This document shows, one piece after another, positions 4,930 to 59,074 of a stretch of DNA of 64,000 nt. The notes beneath the pieces were generated by a model, which was given only the letters and a program-made list of their open reading frames with translations, ran no database searches and had not been told where the DNA came from. Every line of letters starts with the position of its first letter. The stretch's first letter is position 1. Location: NCBI GenBank assembly GCA_964490365.1, contig CAZBAG010000002.1, forward strand, positions 73,486 through 137,485, read 5' to 3'. Both the position numbers and the translations under genes were made by a program. This DNA is from an uncultured Candidatus Saccharibacteria bacterium. Its GTDB lineage: Bacteria; Patescibacteriota; Minisyncoccia; Phycocordibacterales; CSBR16-119.

Positions 4930-5458
4930 TAGATGAAGGCCGGCACGCTTGCGTGCCGGCCCTTTTCTTTTTATTCTTCTTGAGCCATTTTGCAACAGCC
5001 TCAACTCCATTCTGCCAGGAACCGTATACTTTCATTTTGCCGTTGTAGGTTCCAACGTTCCCTGGATTCTTCGATCGTGCCCCTTTGCCCTTTGTTCCAA
5101 AACCAGAATCTTGTTGCATGATTGCAAGAAGAAGGTGAACACTTACTCCATGCTTAATTGCTGAGTTGGTCACCATTTTCCCAGTCAATGGGCTTTTAGG
5201 AAATCTTTTGCGGATGTATGTCTCAACATCCTGAGAAGATCTCATGCGAGGCATCTTTTGTAGGATTTTGTAAACCCTACTCTCATGACTCTTAGCCGTT
5301 GCGTAGTCTGTAATGTCGTAGTTCTTAAAAGAAGAAAGGGGTGACTCAAAAGCAGGATCCGTTTTTTCCACGGCTCGTCTCTGTAATCGGGCATGGATCA
5401 AGTAGAAAACGAGAACAGCAAGTACTATAAAAAGCCAAAACATTTTCTTATTTGCCAT
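4916..5458 (-). CDS. membrane-anchored peptidoglycan hydrolase-like protein (glucosaminidase/FlgJ-like motif)
   Basis: N-terminal transmembrane helix. AIMQQDSGFGTKGKGARSKNPGNVG parallels the GH73 glucosaminidase motif AxxLESGWG...NNLFGIK, with Asp in place of Glu. The 3' end runs through the terminator hairpin, so the true stop may be earlier. Confidence 0.3.
   Translation of the reverse strand: MANKKMFWLFIVLAVLVFYLIHARLQRRAVEKTDPAFESPLSSFKNYDITDYATAKSHESRVYKILQKMPRMRSSQDVETYIRKRFPKSPLTGKMVTNSAIKHGVSVHLLLAIMQQDSGFGTKGKGARSKNPGNVGTYNGKMKVYGSWQNGVEAVAKWLKKNKKKRAGTQACRPSSIIQQ
4938..4975. terminator. bidirectional terminator
   Basis: ggccggcacg/cgtgccggcc 10-bp GC stem followed by a T tract, located between tyrS (+) and the - strand gene ending at 4916. 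Confidence 0.6.
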
Positions 5459-5861: not shown

Positions 5862-6341
5862 CTAGAATCGCTCGTATGCAAAACAAGTAATCCCAATAGC
5901 AATCGCATCTATTTCATCATCTTGTTTTTTCTCTTTTGGAATATCTACAAGCCTGTGAACCATAGTATGAATTGCATCTTTGGTTGCTTTGCCGTATCCA
6001 GTCACAGCACTCTTAATTTGAAGTGGTGTATATTCAAAAATAGCTAAACCATGCACGTGCGCAACATATAAAATTGCCCCTCGTGCCTCTGCAACACCCA
6101 TCGCGGTTTTTTGATTGTTTTCAAAATAGAGTTTCTCTATAGCAAGTGTTTCAGGAGAAAATTCAGTGACTATTTTTTCTAGTTCTTGCCCAATAAGAAA
6201 TATTCTCTCATGGAGTGGCAACTTCGGCGAAGTTTTAAAGCACGTCGAATAGAGTAGTTTCTCACGTCTGTCACCGGGATTCTTTTCGAGAACCGCAATA
6301 CCAACTCGTTCATATCCTGGATCAATACCAAGTAGTTTCAT
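5862..6341 (-). CDS. ruvC: crossover junction endodeoxyribonuclease RuvC
   Basis: MKLLGIDPGYERVGIAV start and RNase H-like fold motifs. Conserved ruvC-yebC-ruvB order. Confidence 0.85.
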   Translation of the reverse strand: MKLLGIDPGYERVGIAVLEKNPGDRREKLLYSTCFKTSPKLPLHERIFLIGQELEKIVTEFSPETLAIEKLYFENNQKTAMGVAEARGAILYVAHVHGLAIFEYTPLQIKSAVTGYGKATKDAIHTMVHRLVDIPKEKKQDDEIDAIAIGITCFAYERF

Positions 6342-47878: not shown

Positions 47879-50800
47879 TTGTATATGAAGTTACAAAAAG
47901 CATTCTTTCTTGTTCTCGGCCTCGCCTTTTTGGTGTCGCTGGGTTCTTTAGTTTCTGGGGCACCTGGTCAAAAAGCTCAAGTAGTTAGTGGACAAAACTC
48001 TATTGGTGTTACATCACCATCAACAAGCACTATTGTAGCAGCAGGGCAATCTGTTCCTACAACATGTCAGTATGCTACGGCGTCTGGATTCTCAGTAACG
48101 ACACTTCAGTGGTCAGCTGAGACGACAAATGATCTCGAAACACCTATTACAAGTATGGTTCCAACTGGAGCAACAGGATCTGAAACAAGAAATATCGTAG
48201 TTCCTGTTGGCGGCACTGGCTCTGTCATCTTAAAGTGTTATGCTGAATACGCAAATGCTTCTACAGGTGTTGAAATGCAAATTGCATCTCAAAGAGTTCT
48301 CAATATCTCTGGAACTGTAACACCTCCAACAAACGACACCACAGCACCTACTGTTCCATCAGGACTTACTGTAACTGCAACAAGTTACTCAAGTCTTACA
48401 CTTAACTGGACAGCATCCACAGATGCAGGTGGTGTAGCTTCATACGAGATCTTCCGAAACAATGGAGGGTCAACAGCAATCAATACAACAACTCCTATCG
48501 CTGTAGTTAATCATCCAACAACTACATATCTAAACTCAGGTCTTCTTGCGAATAAGACATATAAATATAGAATACGAGCAAAGGATACAGCGGGAAACGT
48601 TTCATCACTTACTTCAACAGTAAGTCGAACAACTCTCGCTATTGGTATACCAACAAACGTTACCATTACCAATCCAACAACTTCATCTCTTACGGTAAAC
48701 TGGACAGCGCCAACAAGTGGAGCATACGAATATGCAATTTTTGCAAACAACGGTGGTACCACAGCAATCAATACAACAACTCCTATTGCAACAGTTCCAG
48801 CGGGTGTAACAACATACACACGAACAGGACTTACTCCTGCAACTTCATATAAATTTAGAGTAGCAGCCCTTACTGATGCGGGTAGTCGATCATCTCTTAC
48901 AACTGTGAAAACAGGCGTGACAGCAAGTAGTGGACCATCTGACACCACCGCCCCAACAGTAACCATCACAGCTCCAACTGCTTCACAAGTTCTTGCAGCA
49001 GGTACTACTTCTACAAACCTTACGGTTACCACAAACGAGAATGCAACCTGTAAATGGTCAACAACCAACACAGCATACGCAAGTATGACCAACACCATGA
49101 CAGGATCTGGTTCTACTTCACACTCAGCTTCTCAAACAGGTCTTACCAATGGAACATCATACACACGATACGTATCATGTGCTGATACAGCAGGTAATGC
49201 TTCGACAACACAAAGTAGAGCGTTTAGTGTGGGATCTCCAGTTGCTGATACTACTGCACCAACATTCTCTGGTCTTGCAGCAACAGCTTCAACGGTAAAC
49301 TCAGTTACTCTTGATTGGTCAGATTCTACAGATCCTTCATCTCCGGTGACCTATAAGATTTACCGAAGCACAACTCAAACAGGAACATTTACTCAAGTTG
49401 GAGGAACTCTTTCAACAAGTGCATTTGTTGATTCTGGTCTTACTGCTTCAACAACATATTGGTATAAAGGAGTTGCTTGTGATGCGGTCAACAATTGTTC
49501 AGCTCAAAGTGCGGCGGTAAGCCGAGCAACAACTGCTGCTCCTGACACCACCGCCCCAACAGTAACCATCACAGCTCCAACTGCTTCACAAGTTCTTGCA
49601 GCAGGTACTACTTCTACAAACCTTACGGTTACCACAAACGAGAATGCAACCTGTAAATGGTCAACAACCAACACAGCATACGCAAGTATGACCAACACCA
49701 TGACAGGATCTGGTTCTACTTCACACTCAGCTTCTCAAACAGGTCTTACCAATGGAACATCATACACACGATACGTATCATGTGCTGATACAGCAGGTAA
49801 TGCTTCGACAACACAAAGTAGAGCGTTTAGTGTGGCTCTTGCAGCGCCAAGTGCACCAACCGGTGTAACAGTTGGCTCTCCAACAACTTCATCTCTTGTT
49901 GTAAACTGGACAGCAGTAACTAGTGCAACATCATACAAAGTCTATCGAGTTGCTTCAAACGGTCTTGTTGATGGGACTATTCCAGCGCTTACAGTTGCAA
50001 CACCAAACGTATCAACAACCGTTACAGGGCTTTCATCTGGTACCGCATACCGATTCCTCGTAACAGCAGTGAACTCTGTAGGCGAATCAACACTAACTCC
50101 AAGTGGAACAAACAATGCAAGTGCAACAACATCTTCACCACAAATTACTGTTTCATCACTTGAACTTGTTCGAACAAACGGAACAGTTGTTGAATCACTC
50201 GATGGAGGAGAATCAATTAACGTTGGAACTCAAAATGGAGGAGTGGGTCCAAACATTTCAGTACGAGCAAGCACAAACCCAGCTACTCCAGGAAGTGTTG
50301 TATTCTCTCTCCAAAAACCAAACAGTACAACACACACACTTACTGAAAACTCTGCGCCATATACGTTGTTCGGCGACACCAGTGACACAGTGATTGTTGC
50401 TTGGCAAAACCTTCTTCCAGGAGGATATACACTAACTGTAACTCCATACGCAGGTACAAATGGAACAGGACAAGTTGGAGTACCACGAACAGTGCAATTC
50501 CAAATTGTAAACAATGATGACACCACAGCACCAGTAAACCCAACAAACGTTGCGATTACGTATCGATCAGCATCTCAACTTAAAGTTGGATGGACTAATT
50601 CAACATCATCTGATGTTGCTTCATATCGAGTCTACCGAGACAACGTTTCTATGGGTGTTGTGAATCATCCAACAAATACATTTACTGATACATCAGTAAA
50701 TGCGACAGGAAACTATGTATACAAAGCAGTAGCAATTGACACATCAAACAATGAAGCAACTCTTCCAGGAACTGGTGTAACTTCGCCAACACTTTCTACA

Positions 50801-53800
50801 GCCTTCGTACTTAACAATCAAGTAGAAACAAATACAAGTGCTCAGGTTAAATCAGCACCTGAATCAACAACTGTTGCTGGTACACAAGCAACAGGTTCTA
50901 TTGGAACAATAACAAACGGACCAGTATGGGTAACAGGCGGTGTTCAACACTGGTATGTTAACTTTAACTCAGGTACTGATGGTTGGGTAAACCAAGCTAA
51001 TCTTGACCTCTATACAGCACCAACAACTGATACTACTGCGCCAGCATATCCAGGAGGAAATGCAGCATTTACCGTAACAGCAGGATCACAAACATCACTC
51101 GTCCTTGATTGGGCAGATGCAACAGACGCAACAGCTCCAGTAACATATAAAGTTTCAAGAAGTACTTCTGCAAGTGGACCATTTACTCAAGTTTCTCCAG
51201 CATTCACAGCAAGTACCTTTAACGACAACAACGCTGGTCTTACCGCAGGATCAACACGATACTACCAATTGATTGCTTGTGACGCCGTAACGCCAACTCA
51301 AAACTGTACAACACCAATTGTTCAAGGGGGTACAACTTCACCTGTTGTTGATACGACTGCTCCAACAGTAACGATTTCAGCGCCAACAGCAAATGAAGTA
51401 TTCCCATCAGGAACAACCAACGCAACACTTACTGTTTCTACGAACGAACCAGCAACCTGTAAATGGTCAACAACCAACACAGCATACGCAAGTATGACCA
51501 ACACCATGACAGGATCTGGTTCTACTTCACACTCAGCTTCTCAAACAGGTCTTACCAATGGAACATCATACACACGATACGTATCATGTGCTGATACAGC
51601 AGGTAATGCTTCGACAACACAAAGTAGAGCGTTTAGTGTGGCCGTGTTTGTTCCTGACACAACAGCTCCAGCCGGAACCTTAAACCCAGTAGTAGGTTCT
51701 CCTACATCAAGTAGTCTCACTGTTTCTTGGTCAGCTCTTACCGATTCAACAACACCAATTAACTACCGACTCTACCGAAGCACAACTCAAACAGGAACAT
51801 TTACACAAGTTGGTGGAAATATTACTGGTACATCATATGTTGACACTGGACGATCTGCTTCAACAACATATTGGTATAAAGTAGATGCCTGTGATAGTGC
51901 TACGACACCAAACTGTACTTCTCAATCAGCGGCAGTAAGTGGAACAACTGTTTCAGAGGGAACTGAACCACCAATTACTACAACATGTCCTACAATGCCT
52001 TCAATTACTGGAGACATTCACACACAAAAAGCAGTACAACTATGTGCAGAAATTTCAAACAACCCAAATAGAATCACTCTTAAGTGGGCAAACGTTTCAG
52101 GAAGAACGCAAACAAGTGCAACAATCTCAAGAAAAGCTGGCCTAGCTTCAACCTCATTCACTTCACTAGGAACAGTATCAGGTAATGCAACAAGTTACGT
52201 TGATAACACTGCGGTTGCTGGAACATACTATGAATACAAGGTTCAAGTAAACTCAAATGCATACGGATATATTGCTGCTGGAATCAATGTTCCTCAAGAA
52301 TCATATCGAGGTAAAATGGTTCTTGTTATCGACAACACATTCCAAACATCACTCGCATCACAAATTAGCACACTCGTAGATGACCTTACAGCTGATAAAT
52401 GGGTGGTAATACCAAAATATGTAAGTCGAAGTGATACACCAACAACAGTTCGAAATGCTATTAAAGCAGAATACGATGCCGATCCAACAAACGTAAAGGC
52501 CGTATATCTTCTTGGACACGTTCCTGTTCCACGAGCTGGAAACTTCAATGGTGATGGACATGGATCACGTGCGCTTTCAACTGATACATATTATGGAGAA
52601 ATGACTCAAGAGTTCAATAAACTCTCAAATGGATGTACACCATATACAGAAATCTCAAACATACCAGCTGGCCCGTCTGATTGGAGTCTATCGCCGATAA
52701 ACTACTCTCAATGGCAAAGTCCATATCAAGTGAGTTCATTTATGCCAATTCCACCAACGACTCATAAATTCTGTCTTACAAGTGGTCAAACTCCTTCTGC
52801 TCTTGAACTGCAAGTTGGACGAGTAGATATGTTTGCGCTTACAGTCTATAGTCAATCAGAACAAACACTACTTTCAAACTATCTAACAAAAGCAAGAGAA
52901 TTTAAGAGAAAAGTGTGGACACCGGTAAAAAGAGCATTTATCCGAGATGGACTTATCTATCAAGGATATGATGGAGGTAAGTTCGTATGGGGGATGTTGC
53001 CATCTATTGTTGGACCACTTGTCGGATCAAACATTACGGCAGATAACGGTGTAAGTAGTATGGCCGCAATGAACACGGCAACATCAAGTGCAAATACATA
53101 CTTGTTTACGTCGTTACGATACGGAGGTACAACAACTGCTGTTGACTATGCTGGAGGTACGGCTCTTGGTAGTAGTTATACACATGCATCATCAGGATTT
53201 GAAATGGGTGGTGTGTTTAATCAATATGTAGCAAGTTATATTCCAGAATGGGGAGACTATAATGCACTTCTTCGAGCCGCTCTTGCTGATGGTAAGGCTC
53301 TCGCTTCTATGCATGGTGATGACCGAAACTGGTACTTGCATTCAATGGGTCTTGGTCAAAATATTGGTTACGCAGGTAAGATGACTGTAAATAACACAAC
53401 CTCACTATATGTTCCAGTCGGAGGTATCTGGGATAGCAACTATGGCGGTAATGGGTTTATGTCACTTCTTGGCGATCCATCACTACGAGCTGAATATGTT
53501 GCTCCGGTTTCTTCTCTCACACTTTCAAACAGCTCTGGTAAGACAGCAATGTCATGGCCAGCAGCTTCAAGTGCTACTCATGGGTATAATGTATACAAAA
53601 TAACTTCAGGTGGTATTACAAAACTTAATGGAGCACCGATCACAGGAACAAGTTACACTTCAACAGATAACTATACTTCAGGAAACAAATACATGGTTAC
53701 TGCAGTAAAACTTGAAACAACAAACGGTGGAACATATTACAATGAATCGCTTGGTGCAATTGCAACAGTCGGTGGGGTGGCCTCAGATACGACGGCCCCC

Positions 53801-56224
53801 TCAACGCCGTCTGGGCTTGTTACCAACGGCTCAACTTCAAACTCACTTAGTTTCTCTTGGACAGCGTCATCTGACGCTGTTGGAGTTACAGGGTACAAAG
53901 TGTATCGAAGTTCTTCCCTAACTGGTACCTATAGTCAGGTGGCAACAGGAATTACAACAACAAGCTATACCGATTCTGGTCTTAGTGCGAGTACAACCTA
54001 CTACTACAAAGTGTCTGCATACGATGCTGCCGCAAATGACTCTGCTCAATCTTCAGCAATTACACTTACGACATCTGCTGCAGGTAGTGGCGGAGGTCAA
54101 GTACTTGGTATTAATGGACCAGTCGGTCCAAGCCTTACTGATAACGCTTCGGTCTGTACAAACCCATCTGGTGGAACTATTTACTACGTTGATTCAATGT
54201 CAGGGAATGATTCAAACAGTGGCACTTCAACAACTACTGCATGGAAAACAATAGGTAGACTTAACACAGGTGCCTCATCTTTCTCTCCGGGAACAATGAC
54301 TTGTTTCAAGCGAGGTGGTATTTATCCAGGAACAATTACTCTTCCTGTGTCAGGAACACAATCAGCACCAATTCGATTTGATGCGTATGGATCTGGTAAT
54401 GCGCCAATTATCTCTGGATTCGACCAAATTACAACACCATGGGTAGCTCACTCAGGTAATATCTGGAAAACAACCATCGCCACAGGTCTAACACCAAAAC
54501 AACTTCAAGTAAGTGGTACTGTGCAAAAACTTGCACGTCATCCAAACACTGGATGGCTTCAAACAACAAATAAAACCGCAACAACCACCTCAGGATCTTG
54601 GATCGGTACTCAAACAGCAGGATCTCTTGTTGGTGCAAATATTGTACAGTTAGCAAATCCTTGGGCATGGTTCCGAGATAAAGTGACAGCACAATCTGGG
54701 TCAACAGTAACGTTTGCTTCTCCGGGTGCAGCAATTTTTACAGGCGAGCAAGCTGGTTGGTCATATGGTTTTGAAAATAAACTATCATTCTTAGATTCTG
54801 CGGGTGAATGGTACTACAATGATGTGACGGGAGAGCTCTATCTTTGGGCACCAAGTAGTGCAAACCCAAATAGCTTGTTGGTAGAAATTTCTTCTCGAAA
54901 TCTTGGAATTGTTCTACGAGAAAATATGCCAGATGCTGATATTCAGTTTAAAAATCTTGTTTTCGAAGGTTACAGTACGGCAATTAGTCAAGATGGAATG
55001 CAAACACGAGTGCTCTATGAAAATCTTGAGTTGAGAAAATCTGGACGAGCACTCCTCATGTGGACACCAAGTGAAAATATTAACGACGCAAACACTATTC
55101 GAAATAACTATATTCACGATATTCAACAAGATGCAGTTGCACTCTTCAGTGGAAATGGTCACACATTTGAAGGAAACGTGGTGAAAGATGTTGGGGTTGA
55201 TCCTTGGCTTGCTGCAAACTCTACAACATGGGGAATGATCGGGCTCAACACAGGAACATCAAACCAAATTGTTCGAAGAAATAAATTTGAAAATATTGGG
55301 TACACAGGAATCTTTGTAAACGGTAGTGGTCTTGTTGAAGAAAATTATCTTGAAAACATGCTGGTATCAACAACGGATGGTGCAGGTATTATGTGGAACG
55401 TAGCAGACGGACTTACCGTTCGAAAGAATATTGTAAAAGATGTTCACTCAAACGTAGATAACATGCCTCTGCCATACCCAACCTACAGTCCAATTGGTAA
55501 TGCATTCTACTACGGAGACGACACGATTAAGAACACAACGGTAGAAGGTAACATTGCAATTGATATTGAAAATGATGCATACGTTATGGATCACGGTGCA
55601 GAATATACAAACAACAGAACTATTAACAATATCGGATTTGATTTCGGACGAGGAGGACTCTTCTTCTCAGATGCTTCAATTTATCGAGACATTGGTCCTT
55701 CATATGGTCAATCATATATGCAACTCTGTCTTCCATATGAAAACAGTACATGTTTCAGACCACAATTTAACGATGTGGTAACAGGAAATAAGTTGTACGG
55801 TATAAAACCAGATGGATTTAATAGTGCAGCAAACTATGGAACAGGTAGTAGAGGAATTTACATGTTCTACGTATACAGTAACGGCAGTGGTGCGCACGTA
55901 GATTACGGCACCATCAACAATAACTACTACTATAACCGTTTAAGTGCTGAACGAGTAACAACACGCTTGCCAGTTATCGGTCCATTTACTACAATAGACC
56001 ACACTTTAGCAGAATGGAGGACTGCTTCAGGGGAAGATATGAACTCAACAGAATCAAGTTATCCTGCATCGAGTACACGACCAGAACCAAGTATCTTCTA
56101 TAACGCAACAAGTGCTCCAATCACACAATCTGTTAACGGGTGTACATCAACAAACACACCTCTAACAGGAACACAAACTATCCAGCCATTCACCGCATTA
56201 GTAGTAGAGTATGGTAATTGTTAA
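47879..56224 (+). CDS. giant (2781 aa) secreted surface protein: FN3-like repeats, thrice-repeated Cys-containing Ig-like module, C-terminal right-handed beta-helix region
   Basis: Signal peptide. Multiple modules of about 100 aa with the FN3 pattern (TSSLTVNWTA...YKYRI.A.D.AGN). Three copies of the module DTTAPTVTITAPTASQVL...ATCKWSTTNTAYASMTNTMTGSGSTSHSASQTGLTNGTSYTRYVSCADTAGNAS. The C-terminal 700 aa has parallel beta-helix repeat signatures (NNYIHDIQQDAVALFSGNGHTFEGNVVKDVG). Confidence 0.8.
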   Translation: MYMKLQKAFFLVLGLAFLVSLGSLVSGAPGQKAQVVSGQNSIGVTSPSTSTIVAAGQSVPTTCQYATASGFSVTTLQWSAETTNDLETPITSMVPTGATGSETRNIVVPVGGTGSVILKCYAEYANASTGVEMQIASQRVLNISGTVTPPTNDTTAPTVPSGLTVTATSYSSLTLNWTASTDAGGVASYEIFRNNGGSTAINTTTPIAVVNHPTTTYLNSGLLANKTYKYRIRAKDTAGNVSSLTSTVSRTTLAIGIPTNVTITNPTTSSLTVNWTAPTSGAYEYAIFANNGGTTAINTTTPIATVPAGVTTYTRTGLTPATSYKFRVAALTDAGSRSSLTTVKTGVTASSGPSDTTAPTVTITAPTASQVLAAGTTSTNLTVTTNENATCKWSTTNTAYASMTNTMTGSGSTSHSASQTGLTNGTSYTRYVSCADTAGNASTTQSRAFSVGSPVADTTAPTFSGLAATASTVNSVTLDWSDSTDPSSPVTYKIYRSTTQTGTFTQVGGTLSTSAFVDSGLTASTTYWYKGVACDAVNNCSAQSAAVSRATTAAPDTTAPTVTITAPTASQVLAAGTTSTNLTVTTNENATCKWSTTNTAYASMTNTMTGSGSTSHSASQTGLTNGTSYTRYVSCADTAGNASTTQSRAFSVALAAPSAPTGVTVGSPTTSSLVVNWTAVTSATSYKVYRVASNGLVDGTIPALTVATPNVSTTVTGLSSGTAYRFLVTAVNSVGESTLTPSGTNNASATTSSPQITVSSLELVRTNGTVVESLDGGESINVGTQNGGVGPNISVRASTNPATPGSVVFSLQKPNSTTHTLTENSAPYTLFGDTSDTVIVAWQNLLPGGYTLTVTPYAGTNGTGQVGVPRTVQFQIVNNDDTTAPVNPTNVAITYRSASQLKVGWTNSTSSDVASYRVYRDNVSMGVVNHPTNTFTDTSVNATGNYVYKAVAIDTSNNEATLPGTGVTSPTLSTAFVLNNQVETNTSAQVKSAPESTTVAGTQATGSIGTITNGPVWVTGGVQHWYVNFNSGTDGWVNQANLDLYTAPTTDTTAPAYPGGNAAFTVTAGSQTSLVLDWADATDATAPVTYKVSRSTSASGPFTQVSPAFTASTFNDNNAGLTAGSTRYYQLIACDAVTPTQNCTTPIVQGGTTSPVVDTTAPTVTISAPTANEVFPSGTTNATLTVSTNEPATCKWSTTNTAYASMTNTMTGSGSTSHSASQTGLTNGTSYTRYVSCADTAGNASTTQSRAFSVAVFVPDTTAPAGTLNPVVGSPTSSSLTVSWSALTDSTTPINYRLYRSTTQTGTFTQVGGNITGTSYVDTGRSASTTYWYKVDACDSATTPNCTSQSAAVSGTTVSEGTEPPITTTCPTMPSITGDIHTQKAVQLCAEISNNPNRITLKWANVSGRTQTSATISRKAGLASTSFTSLGTVSGNATSYVDNTAVAGTYYEYKVQVNSNAYGYIAAGINVPQESYRGKMVLVIDNTFQTSLASQISTLVDDLTADKWVVIPKYVSRSDTPTTVRNAIKAEYDADPTNVKAVYLLGHVPVPRAGNFNGDGHGSRALSTDTYYGEMTQEFNKLSNGCTPYTEISNIPAGPSDWSLSPINYSQWQSPYQVSSFMPIPPTTHKFCLTSGQTPSALELQVGRVDMFALTVYSQSEQTLLSNYLTKAREFKRKVWTPVKRAFIRDGLIYQGYDGGKFVWGMLPSIVGPLVGSNITADNGVSSMAAMNTATSSANTYLFTSLRYGGTTTAVDYAGGTALGSSYTHASSGFEMGGVFNQYVASYIPEWGDYNALLRAALADGKALASMHGDDRNWYLHSMGLGQNIGYAGKMTVNNTTSLYVPVGGIWDSNYGGNGFMSLLGDPSLRAEYVAPVSSLTLSNSSGKTAMSWPAASSATHGYNVYKITSGGITKLNGAPITGTSYTSTDNYTSGNKYMVTAVKLETTNGGTYYNESLGAIATVGGVASDTTAPSTPSGLVTNGSTSNSLSFSWTASSDAVGVTGYKVYRSSSLTGTYSQVATGITTTSYTDSGLSASTTYYYKVSAYDAAANDSAQSSAITLTTSAAGSGGGQVLGINGPVGPSLTDNASVCTNPSGGTIYYVDSMSGNDSNSGTSTTTAWKTIGRLNTGASSFSPGTMTCFKRGGIYPGTITLPVSGTQSAPIRFDAYGSGNAPIISGFDQITTPWVAHSGNIWKTTIATGLTPKQLQVSGTVQKLARHPNTGWLQTTNKTATTTSGSWIGTQTAGSLVGANIVQLANPWAWFRDKVTAQSGSTVTFASPGAAIFTGEQAGWSYGFENKLSFLDSAGEWYYNDVTGELYLWAPSSANPNSLLVEISSRNLGIVLRENMPDADIQFKNLVFEGYSTAISQDGMQTRVLYENLELRKSGRALLMWTPSENINDANTIRNNYIHDIQQDAVALFSGNGHTFEGNVVKDVGVDPWLAANSTTWGMIGLNTGTSNQIVRRNKFENIGYTGIFVNGSGLVEENYLENMLVSTTDGAGIMWNVADGLTVRKNIVKDVHSNVDNMPLPYPTYSPIGNAFYYGDDTIKNTTVEGNIAIDIENDAYVMDHGAEYTNNRTINNIGFDFGRGGLFFSDASIYRDIGPSYGQSYMQLCLPYENSTCFRPQFNDVVTGNKLYGIKPDGFNSAANYGTGSRGIYMFYVYSNGSGAHVDYGTINNNYYYNRLSAERVTTRLPVIGPFTTIDHTLAEWRTASGEDMNSTESSYPASSTRPEPSIFYNATSAPITQSVNGCTSTNTPLTGTQTIQPFTALVVEYGNC
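48941..49232 (+). repeat. intragenic ~292-bp direct repeat (copy A) inside the giant gene
   Basis: Identical to 49544-49835 (copy B, offset 603 bp). The 3' 190 bp is also identical to 51453-51641 (copy C). Confidence 0.85.
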
Positions 56225-56228
56225 ATAT

Positions 56229-56525
56229 ATGAAAAGAATAGTAATTTTGATCTCAGTTGTCTTGGTTCTACTCATCGCATATCTTGTAATGAGTAAGAAG
56301 AATATGGACACGGGCAACAACGAAGCAAATGTGATCTCTAACCTTTTCAAAGGTAAGACAGAAGAAAAGCCTGCAGATACAAAACCTATGGAAACATCAA
56401 AGGGTAGACCGGCGATAACTCCAGCAATGACAAGGTTTAAAGGAAATGATCCTAAAAAGGTGCAGGAAGTATTCATTGATGGACTTAAAAAACAAGTTCC
56501 AAAAGGACAAGACGTACCAAGATAA
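56229..56525 (+). CDS. small membrane-anchored hypothetical protein
   Basis: MKRIVILISVVLVLLIAYLV anchor followed by a Lys/Pro-rich tail. Terminator at 56531-56555. Confidence 0.35.
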   Translation: MKRIVILISVVLVLLIAYLVMSKKNMDTGNNEANVISNLFKGKTEEKPADTKPMETSKGRPAITPAMTRFKGNDPKKVQEVFIDGLKKQVPKGQDVPR

Positions 56526-56577: not shown

Positions 56578-57006
56578 ATGAAAATTGGATTGAAATCACA
56601 GGTAAAGAACAGTAAAGATTTTACGATTATTAAAGCGAAAAAAGGTGCAGGATTTGGACTCAAAACAAATAAAAGCTTTAAAAAAGGCGACTTTGTTATT
56701 GAATATATTGGTATAAAGCGACTTAATAAAGATATTGAATACCATACAGGAAAATATCTATTTGAAATTGATGAAACGTACACGATTGATGGAAGTCCAC
56801 GATGGAACATTGCTAGGTATATTAATCATTCTTGTCGACCAAACTGTGAAGTAGAGATTGATGCAGAAGGGAAAATACTCATTGAGGCAATAAAGCCAAT
56901 ACAACCAGGAGAAGAAATAACGTACGATTACGGCAAAGAATACTTTAATGAATTCATAAAGCCAATTGGGTGTAGATGTGTAAAGTGTTTAGCAAAAAAG
57001 AAATAA
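56578..57006 (+). CDS. SET domain protein (putative protein lysine methyltransferase)
   Basis: GAGFGL, RYINHSCRPNC (the NHSCxPN SET hallmark), EEITYDYG, and a post-SET Cys cluster CRCVKC. Confidence 0.7.
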   Translation: MKIGLKSQVKNSKDFTIIKAKKGAGFGLKTNKSFKKGDFVIEYIGIKRLNKDIEYHTGKYLFEIDETYTIDGSPRWNIARYINHSCRPNCEVEIDAEGKILIEAIKPIQPGEEITYDYGKEYFNEFIKPIGCRCVKCLAKKK

Positions 57007-57008
57007 GT

Positions 57009-57698
57009 ATGGATCAAGAAAAACAAGAAAATATACATAAAAAAAAGTTGATGGTTTCAATTCCTCAGGCAATTGTGGTGGCGGGTGTTCTTATTTCACT
57101 ATCGGTTATTTTTTCATCATCACAGTCATCAAACACTTCAGCTGAGCTTGGCTCAGTAAAACAGGTACCGATTCCTGAAGTTACTGAAGCTGACTTTATT
57201 TTGGGAAACAAAAATGCAGAGATTACTCTTGTAGAATATTCTGATTTTTCATGTGGTTTTTGTGCACGCTACCATCCAACCATGAAGCAAATTGTTGCTG
57301 AATACGACGGAAAGGTTCGCTGGGTATATAGACACTTGCCAATTTTTAATAAACCCGCAGCAGTTTCTGCATCGTGTGTTGGAAATACTCTCGGAGACAC
57401 TTCGTTTTTCTCATATACCGATACCTTGTTTGCAAACCAGAAAAATATCGACTCAGCCCTGCTAAAAAGGGAAGCTCTAGCACTCGGCATGACTGATTCT
57501 GACTATGAAGCATGTATTAATGACAAAGAATTGCAAGATACTATTACAAAAGAATTTACTGCGGTGCGGGTATTGGCCGGTTTTAATGCAACACCGTACA
57601 GTGTGTTAATTGATAAAAAAGGTAATATGCACCCATTTTCAGGTGCGTTGCCGTATGAAGAAGTATCTGCACTGATCGATTCATTATTAGCAAGTTAA
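57009..57698 (+). CDS. membrane-anchored DsbA-like thioredoxin-fold oxidoreductase
   Basis: TM anchor, a CGFC active site inside LVEYSDFSCGFCARYHP, and a DsbA-like length. Confidence 0.65.
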   Translation: MDQEKQENIHKKKLMVSIPQAIVVAGVLISLSVIFSSSQSSNTSAELGSVKQVPIPEVTEADFILGNKNAEITLVEYSDFSCGFCARYHPTMKQIVAEYDGKVRWVYRHLPIFNKPAAVSASCVGNTLGDTSFFSYTDTLFANQKNIDSALLKREALALGMTDSDYEACINDKELQDTITKEFTAVRVLAGFNATPYSVLIDKKGNMHPFSGALPYEEVSALIDSLLAS

Positions 57699-58579: not shown

Positions 58580-59074
58580 ATGAATAAAAATTTACTTATT
58601 TCAGTTATTGTTGTTGTTGCTTTTGCGGCTGGTGTATACTTTGTCCTGCAAAATGCACCAGAGCGTGAAGTTATTAATAATCAATCAGAAACAGGACAAA
58701 CCGAACAATCTATGAATACTACACAAGAAACAGCAGATCAACCTATGGGAGAAGCTCCTGAAATGGTTGTTCTGAAAGAGGGAACAGGAGATATTGTTAC
58801 AAAAGAGGGCGACACGCTCAGTGTTGTCTATACAGGATATTTCACAGATGGAAAAGTTTTCGATTCAAATGTAGAATCTGGTCAAGCCTTTGAATTTACT
58901 CTTGGTGCTGGCCAAGTGATTGCTGGCTGGGATGTTGGACTTGTCGGTATGAAAGTTGGCGAAGTAAGAAGACTCAAACTTCCTCCAGCGTTTGCATACG
59001 GATCAAATGAAGTAGGTCCAATTCCTGCGAACTCTACACTTGTATTCGATGTAGAACTAAAAGCTATTAAATAA
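58580..59074 (+). CDS. FKBP-type peptidyl-prolyl cis-trans isomerase (secreted)
   Basis: N-terminal TM anchor. FKBP core VVYTGYFTDGKVFDSN...FTLGAGQVIAGWDVGLVGMKVGEVRRLKLPPAFAYG. Confidence 0.8.
   Translation: MNKNLLISVIVVVAFAAGVYFVLQNAPEREVINNQSETGQTEQSMNTTQETADQPMGEAPEMVVLKEGTGDIVTKEGDTLSVVYTGYFTDGKVFDSNVESGQAFEFTLGAGQVIAGWDVGLVGMKVGEVRRLKLPPAFAYGSNEVGPIPANSTLVFDVELKAIK

What the first reader, a model, noticed from the sequence alone, without database searches (positions are those of the whole stretch)
47879..56224. 8.3-kb gene for a 2781-aa surface protein with three near-identical ~290-bp internal DNA repeats
A single ORF encodes a signal peptide, many FN3-like modules, and a Cys-containing Ig-like module (ATCKWSTTNTAYASMTNTMTGSGSTSHSASQTGLTNGTSYTRYVSCADTAGNAS) present three times. 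Copies A and B are identical over about 292 bp, and copy C over about 190 bp. A beta-helix region of about 700 aa at the C-terminus suggests a glycan-binding or glycan-cleaving function. Identical intragenic repeats imply very recent duplication or ongoing gene conversion, and make the locus prone to expansion or contraction (phase or size variation of an adhesin). Such giant adhesin-like proteins are candidates for host-cell attachment in episymbiotic CPR bacteria.
Basis: seen in the sequence. Interest (0 to 1): 0.55.

Follow-up and report, generated by a model that had tools for sequence, protein, structure and literature searches.

The report
Giant secreted two-headed protein with homogenised repeats
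The 8.3-kb gene is real and intact. It encodes a conserved giant exported protein of a tiny Patescibacteria (CPR) bacterium: a long stalk of small modules carrying a gingipain-shaped domain without the protease catalytic residues and a sugar-cleaving-type beta-helix. Three stalk modules have been made DNA-identical by gene conversion, which is interesting but not extraordinary.

Summary
ORF 47879-56224 (+) is uninterrupted, and its true start is probably ATG 47885, giving 2779 aa. Copies A and B of a two-cysteine Ig-like module are identical over 294 nt. Copy C has 36 mismatches in its first 102 nt and none in the next 190, which is a gene-conversion mosaic.

The signal peptide, FN3 array and C-terminal beta-helix are real. 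The helix is closest to the GH141/GH136/GH120 group.

The whole architecture and its neighbours (a small membrane protein, a DsbA-like thioredoxin, FKBP) are conserved in distant CPR genomes, including an intact 2650-aa orthologue. The two head domains are under purifying selection. This points to a conserved exported enzyme or binding machine rather than a fast-switching adhesin. I found no evidence for phase or size variation, and no anchor motif.

One side finding: three related lineages carry a conserved in-frame TGA inside the last FN3 domain, with selected coding sequence after it. This suggests read-through. The window has ATT at that codon.

The parts
47885..47959 (+). Probable true start (ATG 47885) and Sec signal peptide MKLQKAFFLVLGLAFLVSLGSLVSG
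   Evidence: It is the only hydrophobic segment in the protein. Orthologues start MKLQ[KR]AFF.
47960..48328 (+). N-terminal module of about 120 aa with one Cys pair (C63/C120), unassigned
   Evidence: No Pfam hit. Conserved in orthologue P0243 (42% identity).
48335..48913 (+). FN3-1 and FN3-2
   Evidence: Pfam fn3 and the internal similarity map.
48941..49234 (+). Cys/Ig-like module A. The tract identical to B is 48939-49232.
   Evidence: Weak Big_3_2 and SigLec-like Ig hits.
49247..49528 (+). FN3-3, with Cys pair 534/540
49544..49837 (+). Cys/Ig-like module B. The tract identical to A is 49542-49835.
49844..51328 (+). FN3-4, an Ig-like module (aa 755-880), FN3-5, an unassigned ~75-aa module (aa 975-1050) and FN3-6
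51350..51643 (+). Cys/Ig-like module C, a mosaic. 51350-51451 is 35% diverged from A. 51452-51641 is identical to A and B (the gene-conversion tract).
   Evidence: alignment.
51656..52285 (+). FN3-7 plus the FN3-like domain that always precedes the gingipain-like domain in this family
52301..53503 (+). Gingipain (peptidase C25) fold domain, aa 1475-1875. Invariant S1786 sits at the catalytic-Cys position and R1747 at the catalytic-His position.
53516..54073 (+). FN3-like domain closing the gingipain unit, then FN3-8. Codon 53951-53953 (ATT, I2025) is the position that is TGA in three related lineages.
54101..56221 (+). [quoted passage not shown] Invariant residues are E2310, W2311 and D2500.
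56229..56525 (+). Conserved small single-pass membrane protein gene starting 4 nt after the giant gene's stop
   Evidence: Translation and orthologues in L001, L002, L003, L005 and L012. No Pfam hit.
56976..57698 (+). DsbA-like thioredoxin (Thioredoxin_4), a syntenic neighbour in all related loci
58580..59074 (+). FKBP-type peptidyl-prolyl isomerase, a syntenic neighbour

Best explanation
The gene encodes a conserved, Sec-exported, disulfide-bonded giant protein of a Paceibacterota-type CPR bacterium.

Anatomy. An N-terminal stalk of about 1,330 aa is made of roughly 15 beta-sandwich modules (FN3, Ig-like, Cys modules). The stalk carries two globular heads near the C-terminus. Head 1 is a gingipain-fold domain that has lost the Cys-His dyad (Ser and Arg in their places), so it is most likely a binding or non-canonical hydrolytic module rather than a cysteine protease. 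Head 2 is a beta-helix of the GH141/GH136/GH120 type that most likely binds and cleaves a polysaccharide, such as a cell-wall, capsule or EPS glycan of a host or of the environment.

Repeats. The three near-identical ~290-bp repeats are anciently duplicated Cys modules of the stalk. In this lineage they have been homogenised recently by intragenic gene conversion. They are a by-product of modular repetition, not a demonstrated switch.

Shown: the ORF, the repeats, the mosaic, the folds, the loss of the dyad, and the conservation and synteny. Inferred: export and disulfide formation with help from the adjacent DsbA-like protein, glycan cleavage, and the role of the stalk as a spacer.
For: - The ORF is intact and the only hydrophobic segment is the signal peptide.
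- The 24 Cys form 12 intra-module pairs. A DsbA-like gene is always nearby.
- Dyad loss: RgpB A-C244-V-N-G-D-F corresponds to the family motif G-S-Y-F-G-D-W. Ser is present in 40/40 aligned members and in 222/222 motif matches. The His position is Arg here and variable elsewhere.
- Architecture is conserved: an intact 2650-aa orthologue in L012 with the same downstream genes, and full-length relatives P0243 and P0252.
- Purifying selection: dN/dS is 0.06-0.11 in the beta-helix and 0.20-0.27 in the upstream block that spans Cys module C to FN3-8 and includes the gingipain domain.
- Gene conversion: A equals B over 294 nt. A vs C has 36 mismatches in 102 nt and then 0 in 190 nt. The adjacent FN3 modules of the same duplicated units are only about 75% identical in DNA (D2). 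L012 has two diverged Cys modules and no DNA repeats. L001 has independently homogenised a different FN3 module (266 nt at 100%).
Against: - No enzymatic activity is shown, and the catalytic residues of GH141 or GH136 could not be mapped onto the beta-helix.
- The residue equivalences in the gingipain domain rest on motif and secondary-structure alignment, not on a 3-D superposition. hhalign aligned only the first subdomain and failed on the second.
- An invariant Ser could still be a nucleophile.
- No cell-surface anchor was found, so the protein may be released rather than displayed.
- The arrangement of the repeats in the assembly is unverified.
Confidence: 0.6

Rival explanations
1. It is a non-enzymatic adhesin for host-cell attachment, and its identical repeats drive phase or size variation.
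Against: The repeats are interspersed (603 and 1806 bp apart), not tandem, and no length variants were found. The heads are the most conserved parts (dN/dS 0.06-0.27). Architecture and synteny are conserved at 42-46% identity. There is no LPXTG or other anchor. Invariant acidic residues in the helix (D2500, E2310) fit an enzyme.
Confidence: 0.22
2. The identical repeats, or their number and order, are an assembly artefact: a collapse, a duplication or a mis-threaded repeat graph.
For: The 294-nt and 190-nt exact repeats are longer than typical short reads. Two in-frame orders of the segments between the copies are equally consistent with a de Bruijn graph (inference). Contigs of relatives L003-L007 and L013 start inside this module. 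No reads were available.
Against: Copy C has its own diverged 5' third joined in frame to the identical core, which a collapse would not create. Each copy has unique flanks and the ORF stays open across all of them. The orthologue in L001 independently has a 266-nt perfect repeat. Multiple Cys modules are ancestral (L012 and L002). Flanking sequence is reproduced at 100% identity in eight independent contigs.
Confidence: 0.1
3. The central domain is an active gingipain-type cysteine protease, making the protein a secreted protease.
Against: The Cys position is Ser in every family member examined (40/40 and 222/222). The His position is Arg here and variable elsewhere. Our sequence gives no Pfam C25 hit.
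Confidence: 0.03

Closest known systems
Gingipains RgpB/Kgp and PorU (MEROPS family C25, clan CD)
   Different: The catalytic Cys is replaced by an invariant Ser. The catalytic His is absent. There is a 60-residue low-confidence insertion (segment residues 220-278, about aa 1580-1638). Our sequence has no significant sequence-level hit to C25. The homologues form a separate unannotated family of about 1,900 representatives, found mostly in Flavobacteriales T9SS proteins and in CPR giants.
GH141 (BT_1002), GH136 lacto-N-biosidases (LnbX) and GH120 (XylC) beta-helix glycosidases, plus the uncharacterised PDB entry 9rx2
   Same: Right-handed beta-helix with the YYVxxxGxDxNxGTxxxPxKTI N-terminal cap and a beta-sandwich inserted after the cap, as in BT_1002. 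Profile E-values are 7e-31 (9rx2), about 1e-24 to 1e-27 (GH136), 1.6e-21 (GH141) and 5e-18 (GH120).
   Different: Identity is only 14-19%. The Pfam GH141_M hit is below the gathering score. The catalytic Asp residues of BT_1002 (D523, D564) and of GH136 were not mapped. No family assignment is possible and activity is unknown.
Giant modular surface proteins with concerted evolution of repeats (e.g. Gram-positive Alp/Rib/Bap-type adhesins; giant FN3 proteins noted in Patescibacteria)
   Same: A signal peptide, a long array of beta-sandwich modules, and DNA-identical internal repeats maintained by recombination or gene conversion.
   Different: The repeats here are interspersed single modules, not tandem arrays. 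There is no LPXTG anchor. The distal end carries two enzyme-like domains. The whole protein is conserved with synteny across distant lineages.

Membership tests
Peptidase C25 (gingipain) | Two-subdomain caspase-like alpha/beta fold | tested here: met
Peptidase C25 (gingipain) | Catalytic Cys (RgpB C244) after the last core strand | tested here: not met
   Motif alignment places A-C-V-N-G-D-F against G-S-Y-F-G-D-W, with S1786 here. Ser is present in 40/40 aligned members and 222/222 motif matches. This rests on motif and secondary-structure alignment, not on a 3-D superposition.
Peptidase C25 (gingipain) | Catalytic His (RgpB H211) | tested here: not met
   The equivalent position is R1747 here and Cys, Ser, Gly or Ala in homologues. 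No conserved His is present.
Peptidase C25 (gingipain) | Significant match to Pfam PF01364 | tested here: inconclusive
   Our domain gives no hit even at E<=1. 15 of 40 homologues hit at E<=0.1, the best at 2e-8.
GH141 | Beta-helix catalytic domain interrupted by a beta-sandwich insertion (PF21231) | tested here: inconclusive
GH141 | Catalytic Asp pair (BT_1002 D523 nucleophile, D564 acid/base; PMC10154630) | not tested
   HMM alignments did not reach that part of 5mqp. The family's invariant acidic residues here are D2500 and E2310.
GH136 (lacto-N-biosidase LnbX) | Sequence similarity over the catalytic beta-helix, not only over the N-terminal cap | tested here: not met
   phmmer and profile matches are strong only for the first ~85-100 residues, which form the cap. 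The remainder gives fragmentary low-score stretches.
Fibronectin type III domain arrays | Pfam PF00041 matches above the cut-off | tested here: met
   E 4.6e-44 at 149 bits against a cut-off of 25. Eight canonical copies were mapped by internal similarity.
Sortase-anchored (LPXTG) Gram-positive surface adhesins | C-terminal LPXTG, a hydrophobic segment and a charged tail | tested here: not met
   The only LPGTG is internal, at aa 962. There is no hydrophobic segment apart from the signal peptide. The C-terminus is ...VVEYGNC.
Phase- or size-variable repeat adhesins | Population-level variation in repeat number, or an on/off frameshift | not testable with these tools
   An exact-pattern scan of metagenome contigs found nothing. 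Contigs from the same population do not span the repeats. Reads are needed.
Concerted evolution by gene conversion | Paralogous copies identical within a genome, diverged between genomes, with sharp mosaic boundaries | tested here: met
   A vs C shows 35% divergence followed by 0%. Orthologous modules in L005, L001, L002 and L012 are 62-78% identical in protein to ours. L012 copies are diverged with no DNA repeat.

The most novel reading that the evidence does not exclude
There are two linked possibilities.

(1) The gingipain-fold domain with a universally conserved Ser in place of the catalytic Cys defines a new catalytic type, a Ser-nucleophile clan-CD-like hydrolase. It would be widespread in Bacteroidota T9SS cargo and CPR giants, rather than a dead pseudoprotease.

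(2) In sister lineages the same gene uses a conserved in-frame UGA inside an FN3 loop as a programmed read-through site. That site would set the ratio of a short form (stalk plus gingipain-like head) to a long form (plus beta-helix head). The window's lineage would then have fixed the long form by changing TGA to ATT.
Probability: 0.2. Interest if true: 0.75.

Novelty: new variant of a known kind. Interest (0 to 1): 0.45.

Why it matters
Giant exported proteins are prime candidates for how ultra-small CPR bacteria interact with hosts or substrates, but almost none have been dissected. This work gives a full domain map and shows that the architecture is an old, conserved unit with dedicated neighbours. 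It also identifies two testable heads: an unannotated gingipain-fold family with Ser replacing Cys, and a GH141/GH136-like beta-helix. The repeats give a clean example of intragenic gene conversion and flag a place where short-read assemblies of this clade systematically break. The conserved UGA in sister lineages is a candidate for bacterial programmed read-through, which is rare.

Tried and rejected
- Pfam and NCBIfam on the whole protein and on segments found only fn3, Beta_helix and weak Ig or GH141_M hits. There was nothing for the central 520 aa.
- Sequence and profile searches of the central domain against the PDB found only FN3 hits.
- hhalign of the family profile against RgpB aligned only subdomain A. 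A forced global alignment of subdomain B failed, so catalytic positions were mapped by motifs and secondary-structure order.
- I tried to map the GH141 catalytic Asp residues through P0139 or the A3 profile. The alignments did not reach them.
- PDB entry 9rx2 has no paper in the library.
- An exact 41-nt core pattern scanned against metagenome contigs gave 0 hits.
- The exact full-length protein is not on record.
- The afdb50 fold library was unavailable.
- Selenocysteine as an explanation for the TGA in relatives: there is no Rfam SECIS hit. The hairpin after the UGA in L005 (z -2.8) is only partly conserved in L002, and L013's sequence, read by eye and not folded, shows no obvious equivalent. 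I consider this unlikely.
- Genome-wide UGA reassignment: three genes in the window end in apparently genuine TGA stops, and neighbouring genes in the relatives have no in-frame TGA. I rejected this for the window and consider it unlikely for the relatives. A UGA-to-Trp family is known in Minisyncoccia (PMC13092985).
- The window contains no tRNA-Trp gene to inspect.
- No inverted repeats that would suggest an invertible segment occur around the gene in the window.

Full report
**1. Observation**

The ORF 47879-56224 on the + strand is open for 2781 codons from a TTG. Two codons downstream is ATG 47885. Full-length relatives start MKLQ[KR]AFF..., so the real product is probably 2779 aa. The only strongly hydrophobic stretch in the protein is aa 3-27, a typical Sec signal peptide ending VSG|A.

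The reported module occurs exactly three times. In DNA, copy A (48939-49232) and copy B (49542-49835) are identical over 294 nt. Copy C (51350-51643) differs from A at 36 of its first 102 positions and at none of the next 190, which are 51452-51641.

**2. Domain map**

Internal similarity, Pfam and two AlphaFold models give this order:
- Signal peptide.
- An unassigned ~120-aa module.
- FN3-1, FN3-2, Cys module A, FN3-3, Cys module B, FN3-4.
- An Ig-like module, FN3-5, an unassigned ~75-aa module, FN3-6, Cys module C, FN3-7.
- An FN3-like domain, then the gingipain-fold domain (aa 1475-1875), then another FN3-like domain.
- FN3-8.

The 24 cysteines fall into 12 intra-module pairs. There is no LPXTG-type signal (an LPGTG at aa 962 is internal) and no second hydrophobic segment.

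**3.

The central 520 aa have no Pfam, NCBIfam or PDB sequence match. They do have hundreds of homologues, mostly 700-830-aa Flavobacteriales proteins with T9SS sorting domains.

I recalled the RgpB sequence from memory and checked it against the PDB; it is 100% identical to 4ief_B. I then used it as follows:
- hhalign aligned the first subdomain, pairing GKMVLVID with GRMIVIVP and VYLLGH with VLLVGD.
- In the second subdomain, the order of secondary-structure elements and a clear motif match place RgpB A243-C244-V-N-G-D-F against the family motif G-S-Y-F-G-D-W.
- That Ser (S1786 here) is present in 40/40 aligned sequences and in all 222 motif occurrences among 263 family members.
- The position of His211 is Arg here and Cys, Ser, Gly or Ala elsewhere.

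So this is a gingipain-fold domain that is not a canonical cysteine peptidase. A full scan of 1.84 billion cluster representatives finds 1,916 relatives at E<=1e-3 and 290 at E<=1e-30. These include several 2.5-2.9-kaa giants with the domain in the same relative position.

**4. The beta-helix**

Profile searches of the PDB agree: 9rx2 at 7e-31, GH136 at 1e-23 to 1e-27, GH141 at 1.6e-21 and GH120 at 5e-18. BT_1002 has the same 'cap, inserted beta-sandwich, helix' layout, and its catalytic residues are D523 and D564 (PMC10154630). I could not map those residues.

Invariant residues in the family alignment include E2310, W2311 and D2500, plus an Asn ladder. Family membership is unresolved.

**5. 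Relatives**

*L001.* A Paceibacterota MAG (GCA_041389065.1) has the same flanking genes, but its orthologue is broken by several frameshifts.

*L012.* A distant MAG contig labelled Saccharibacteria has an intact 2650-aa orthologue. It has the same domain order at 37-46% identity and the same downstream genes: DsbA-like thioredoxin, FKBP, DUF975 and SIMPL. It has two diverged Cys modules and no DNA repeats.

*Database giants.* P0243 (2487 aa) and P0252 (2496 aa) share the signal peptide and the ...VVE[YH]GNC C-terminus. Shorter members (P0242, P0244) end right after the gingipain unit. The two heads are therefore separable units.

*Selection.* dN/dS is 0.06-0.11 in the beta-helix. It is 0.20-0.27 in the upstream block running from Cys module C to FN3-8, which contains the gingipain domain. 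Synonymous divergence (dS) is near saturation, about 1.0-1.3.

*Small neighbour.* A small single-pass membrane protein gene follows the stop codon by 4 nt, and it is present in all related loci examined.

**6. The repeats**

Three observations point to gene conversion:
- The units 'Cys module + following FN3' (A+FN3-3 and C+FN3-7) are old duplicates. Their FN3 parts are about 75% identical in DNA (D2) and 55% in protein, and the 5' third of C is 65% identical to A. Against that background, a 190-nt tract of perfect identity with a sharp edge marks a recent gene-conversion event. B is a full-length converted or recently copied version of A.
- Orthologous Cys modules in other genomes are only 62-78% identical in protein to ours.
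- L001 has independently homogenised a different FN3 module: 266 nt at 100% identity.

This is concerted evolution of stalk modules.

Contigs of relatives L003-L007 and L013 all begin inside this module. That fits assemblers breaking at multi-copy near-identical modules.

For the window itself, eight k=31 contigs from runs SRR10036056-65 are 100% identical to the flanks, but none spans the repeats. I therefore cannot verify copy order or number. I found no evidence for phase or size variation.

**7. Mechanism**

Shown:
- The protein has an export signal and is modular with paired cysteines.
- It carries two conserved head domains of defined folds.
- The protease dyad is lost.
- The repeats were homogenised by conversion.

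Inferred:
- After Sec export, the adjacent DsbA-like protein and the FKBP help fold a roughly 15-module stalk.
- The stalk presents a beta-helix glycan-cleaving or glycan-binding head and a gingipain-fold accessory head to a polysaccharide target, which could be a host envelope or environmental EPS.
- The small downstream membrane protein may be a partner or anchor.

My confidence in this overall picture is about 0.6. The pure variable-adhesin reading is about 0.2, an assembly artefact about 0.1, and an active cysteine protease 0.03 or less.

**8. Side finding in relatives**

In three lineages there is a single in-frame TGA at exactly the codon that is ATT (I2025) in the window. These are L002-L004, L005-L009 and L013, which are 71-88% identical to ours in the beta-helix. 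The codon lies in a loop of FN3-8, in the conserved context AGT GCR TGA ACT. Gene callers split the gene there.

The 114 codons between the TGA and the next ATG are under purifying selection (dN/dS 0.18 at dS about 1.1). They encode half an FN3 domain and the conserved beta-helix cap. The called downstream ATG corresponds to M2140, which is already inside the helix. No in-frame start follows the TGA.

Read-through or recoding of the UGA is the simplest explanation. By beta-helix identity, L013 and L001 are each only about 66-74% identical to every other lineage, whereas the window, L005 and L002 are 83-88% identical to one another. I did not build a tree. Because TGA occurs in L013 as well as in L002 and L005, it looks ancestral and lost in the window.

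I found no SECIS and no sign of genome-wide reassignment. A UGA-to-Trp lineage and read-through-prone tRNA-Trp variants were recently described in Patescibacteriota (PMC13092985). This does not affect the window's gene, but it is the most unusual thing seen.

**9. Verdict**

The finding is real. The gene is a new variant of a known kind: a giant modular exported CPR protein with concerted evolution of its repeats. It carries an uncharacterised Ser-variant gingipain-fold domain and an unassigned GH141/GH136-like beta-helix. The adhesin and phase-variation story is unproven. Interest is moderate.

Noticed in passing
L002 nt 4689, L003 nt 2669, L004 nt 2602, L005 nt 2673, L009 nt 1722, L013 nt 2417 (= window codon 53951-53953, ATT): A conserved in-frame TGA sits in a loop of the last FN3 domain in three related lineages. 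The 114 codons after it are under purifying selection (dN/dS 0.18) and no in-frame start follows. This is a candidate programmed UGA read-through that would separate a short form from a long form carrying the beta-helix. Gene callers annotate two genes.
   Followed up: partly
window 56229-56525 (+): A conserved 99-aa single-pass membrane protein gene (MKRIVILISVVLVLLIAYLV..., with a charged tail ending VPR) starts 4 nt after the giant gene's stop. It is present in L001, L002, L003, L005 and L012. It may be a partner or anchor. No Pfam family matches.
   Followed up: partly
window 56976-57698 and 58580-59074: A DsbA-like thioredoxin and an FKBP isomerase stay syntenic with the giant gene in all related loci, including the distant L012. 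This fits the 12 cysteine pairs in the giant protein.
   Followed up: partly
window 47906 (ends of L019, L020, L021): Three independent k=31 contigs from different runs of the same project, all 100% identical to the window, end at exactly 47906, which is 27 nt into the giant ORF. No repeated k-mer occurs in the window at that site. The cause could be strain polymorphism starting there or a repeat elsewhere in the genome.
   Followed up: partly
L002 1-130 vs 1818-1947: A 130-nt terminal inverted duplication (99% complementary) occurs on a MEGAHIT contig. A divergently oriented gene with three tandem diverged Cys modules lies to its left. It could be an assembly fold-back or a real inverted arrangement. 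Nothing similar occurs in the window.
   Followed up: partly
L001 4542-12937: The orthologue in MAG GCA_041389065.1 is split over at least four reading frames, and the gingipain region is only 35% identical. It is either a pseudogene or a poor assembly. It also carries its own 266-nt perfect repeat of an FN3 module (5073-5338 and 6048-6313).
   Followed up: partly
window 48000-52000: The stalk-coding part has higher GC (0.43-0.44 against about 0.35 in the flanks) and a strongly negative GC skew. This is explained by the Thr/Ala/Ser-rich composition (ACN and GCN codons; Thr is 20% of aa 1-1330) and is not evidence of foreign origin.
   Followed up: partly
window, whole: Stop-codon usage among 61 long ORFs is TAA 48, TAG 10, TGA 3. 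Related loci show no TGA stops at all in 11-17 genes. This is consistent with low GC, but it is worth a genome-wide check given the in-frame TGA in relatives.
   Followed up: partly
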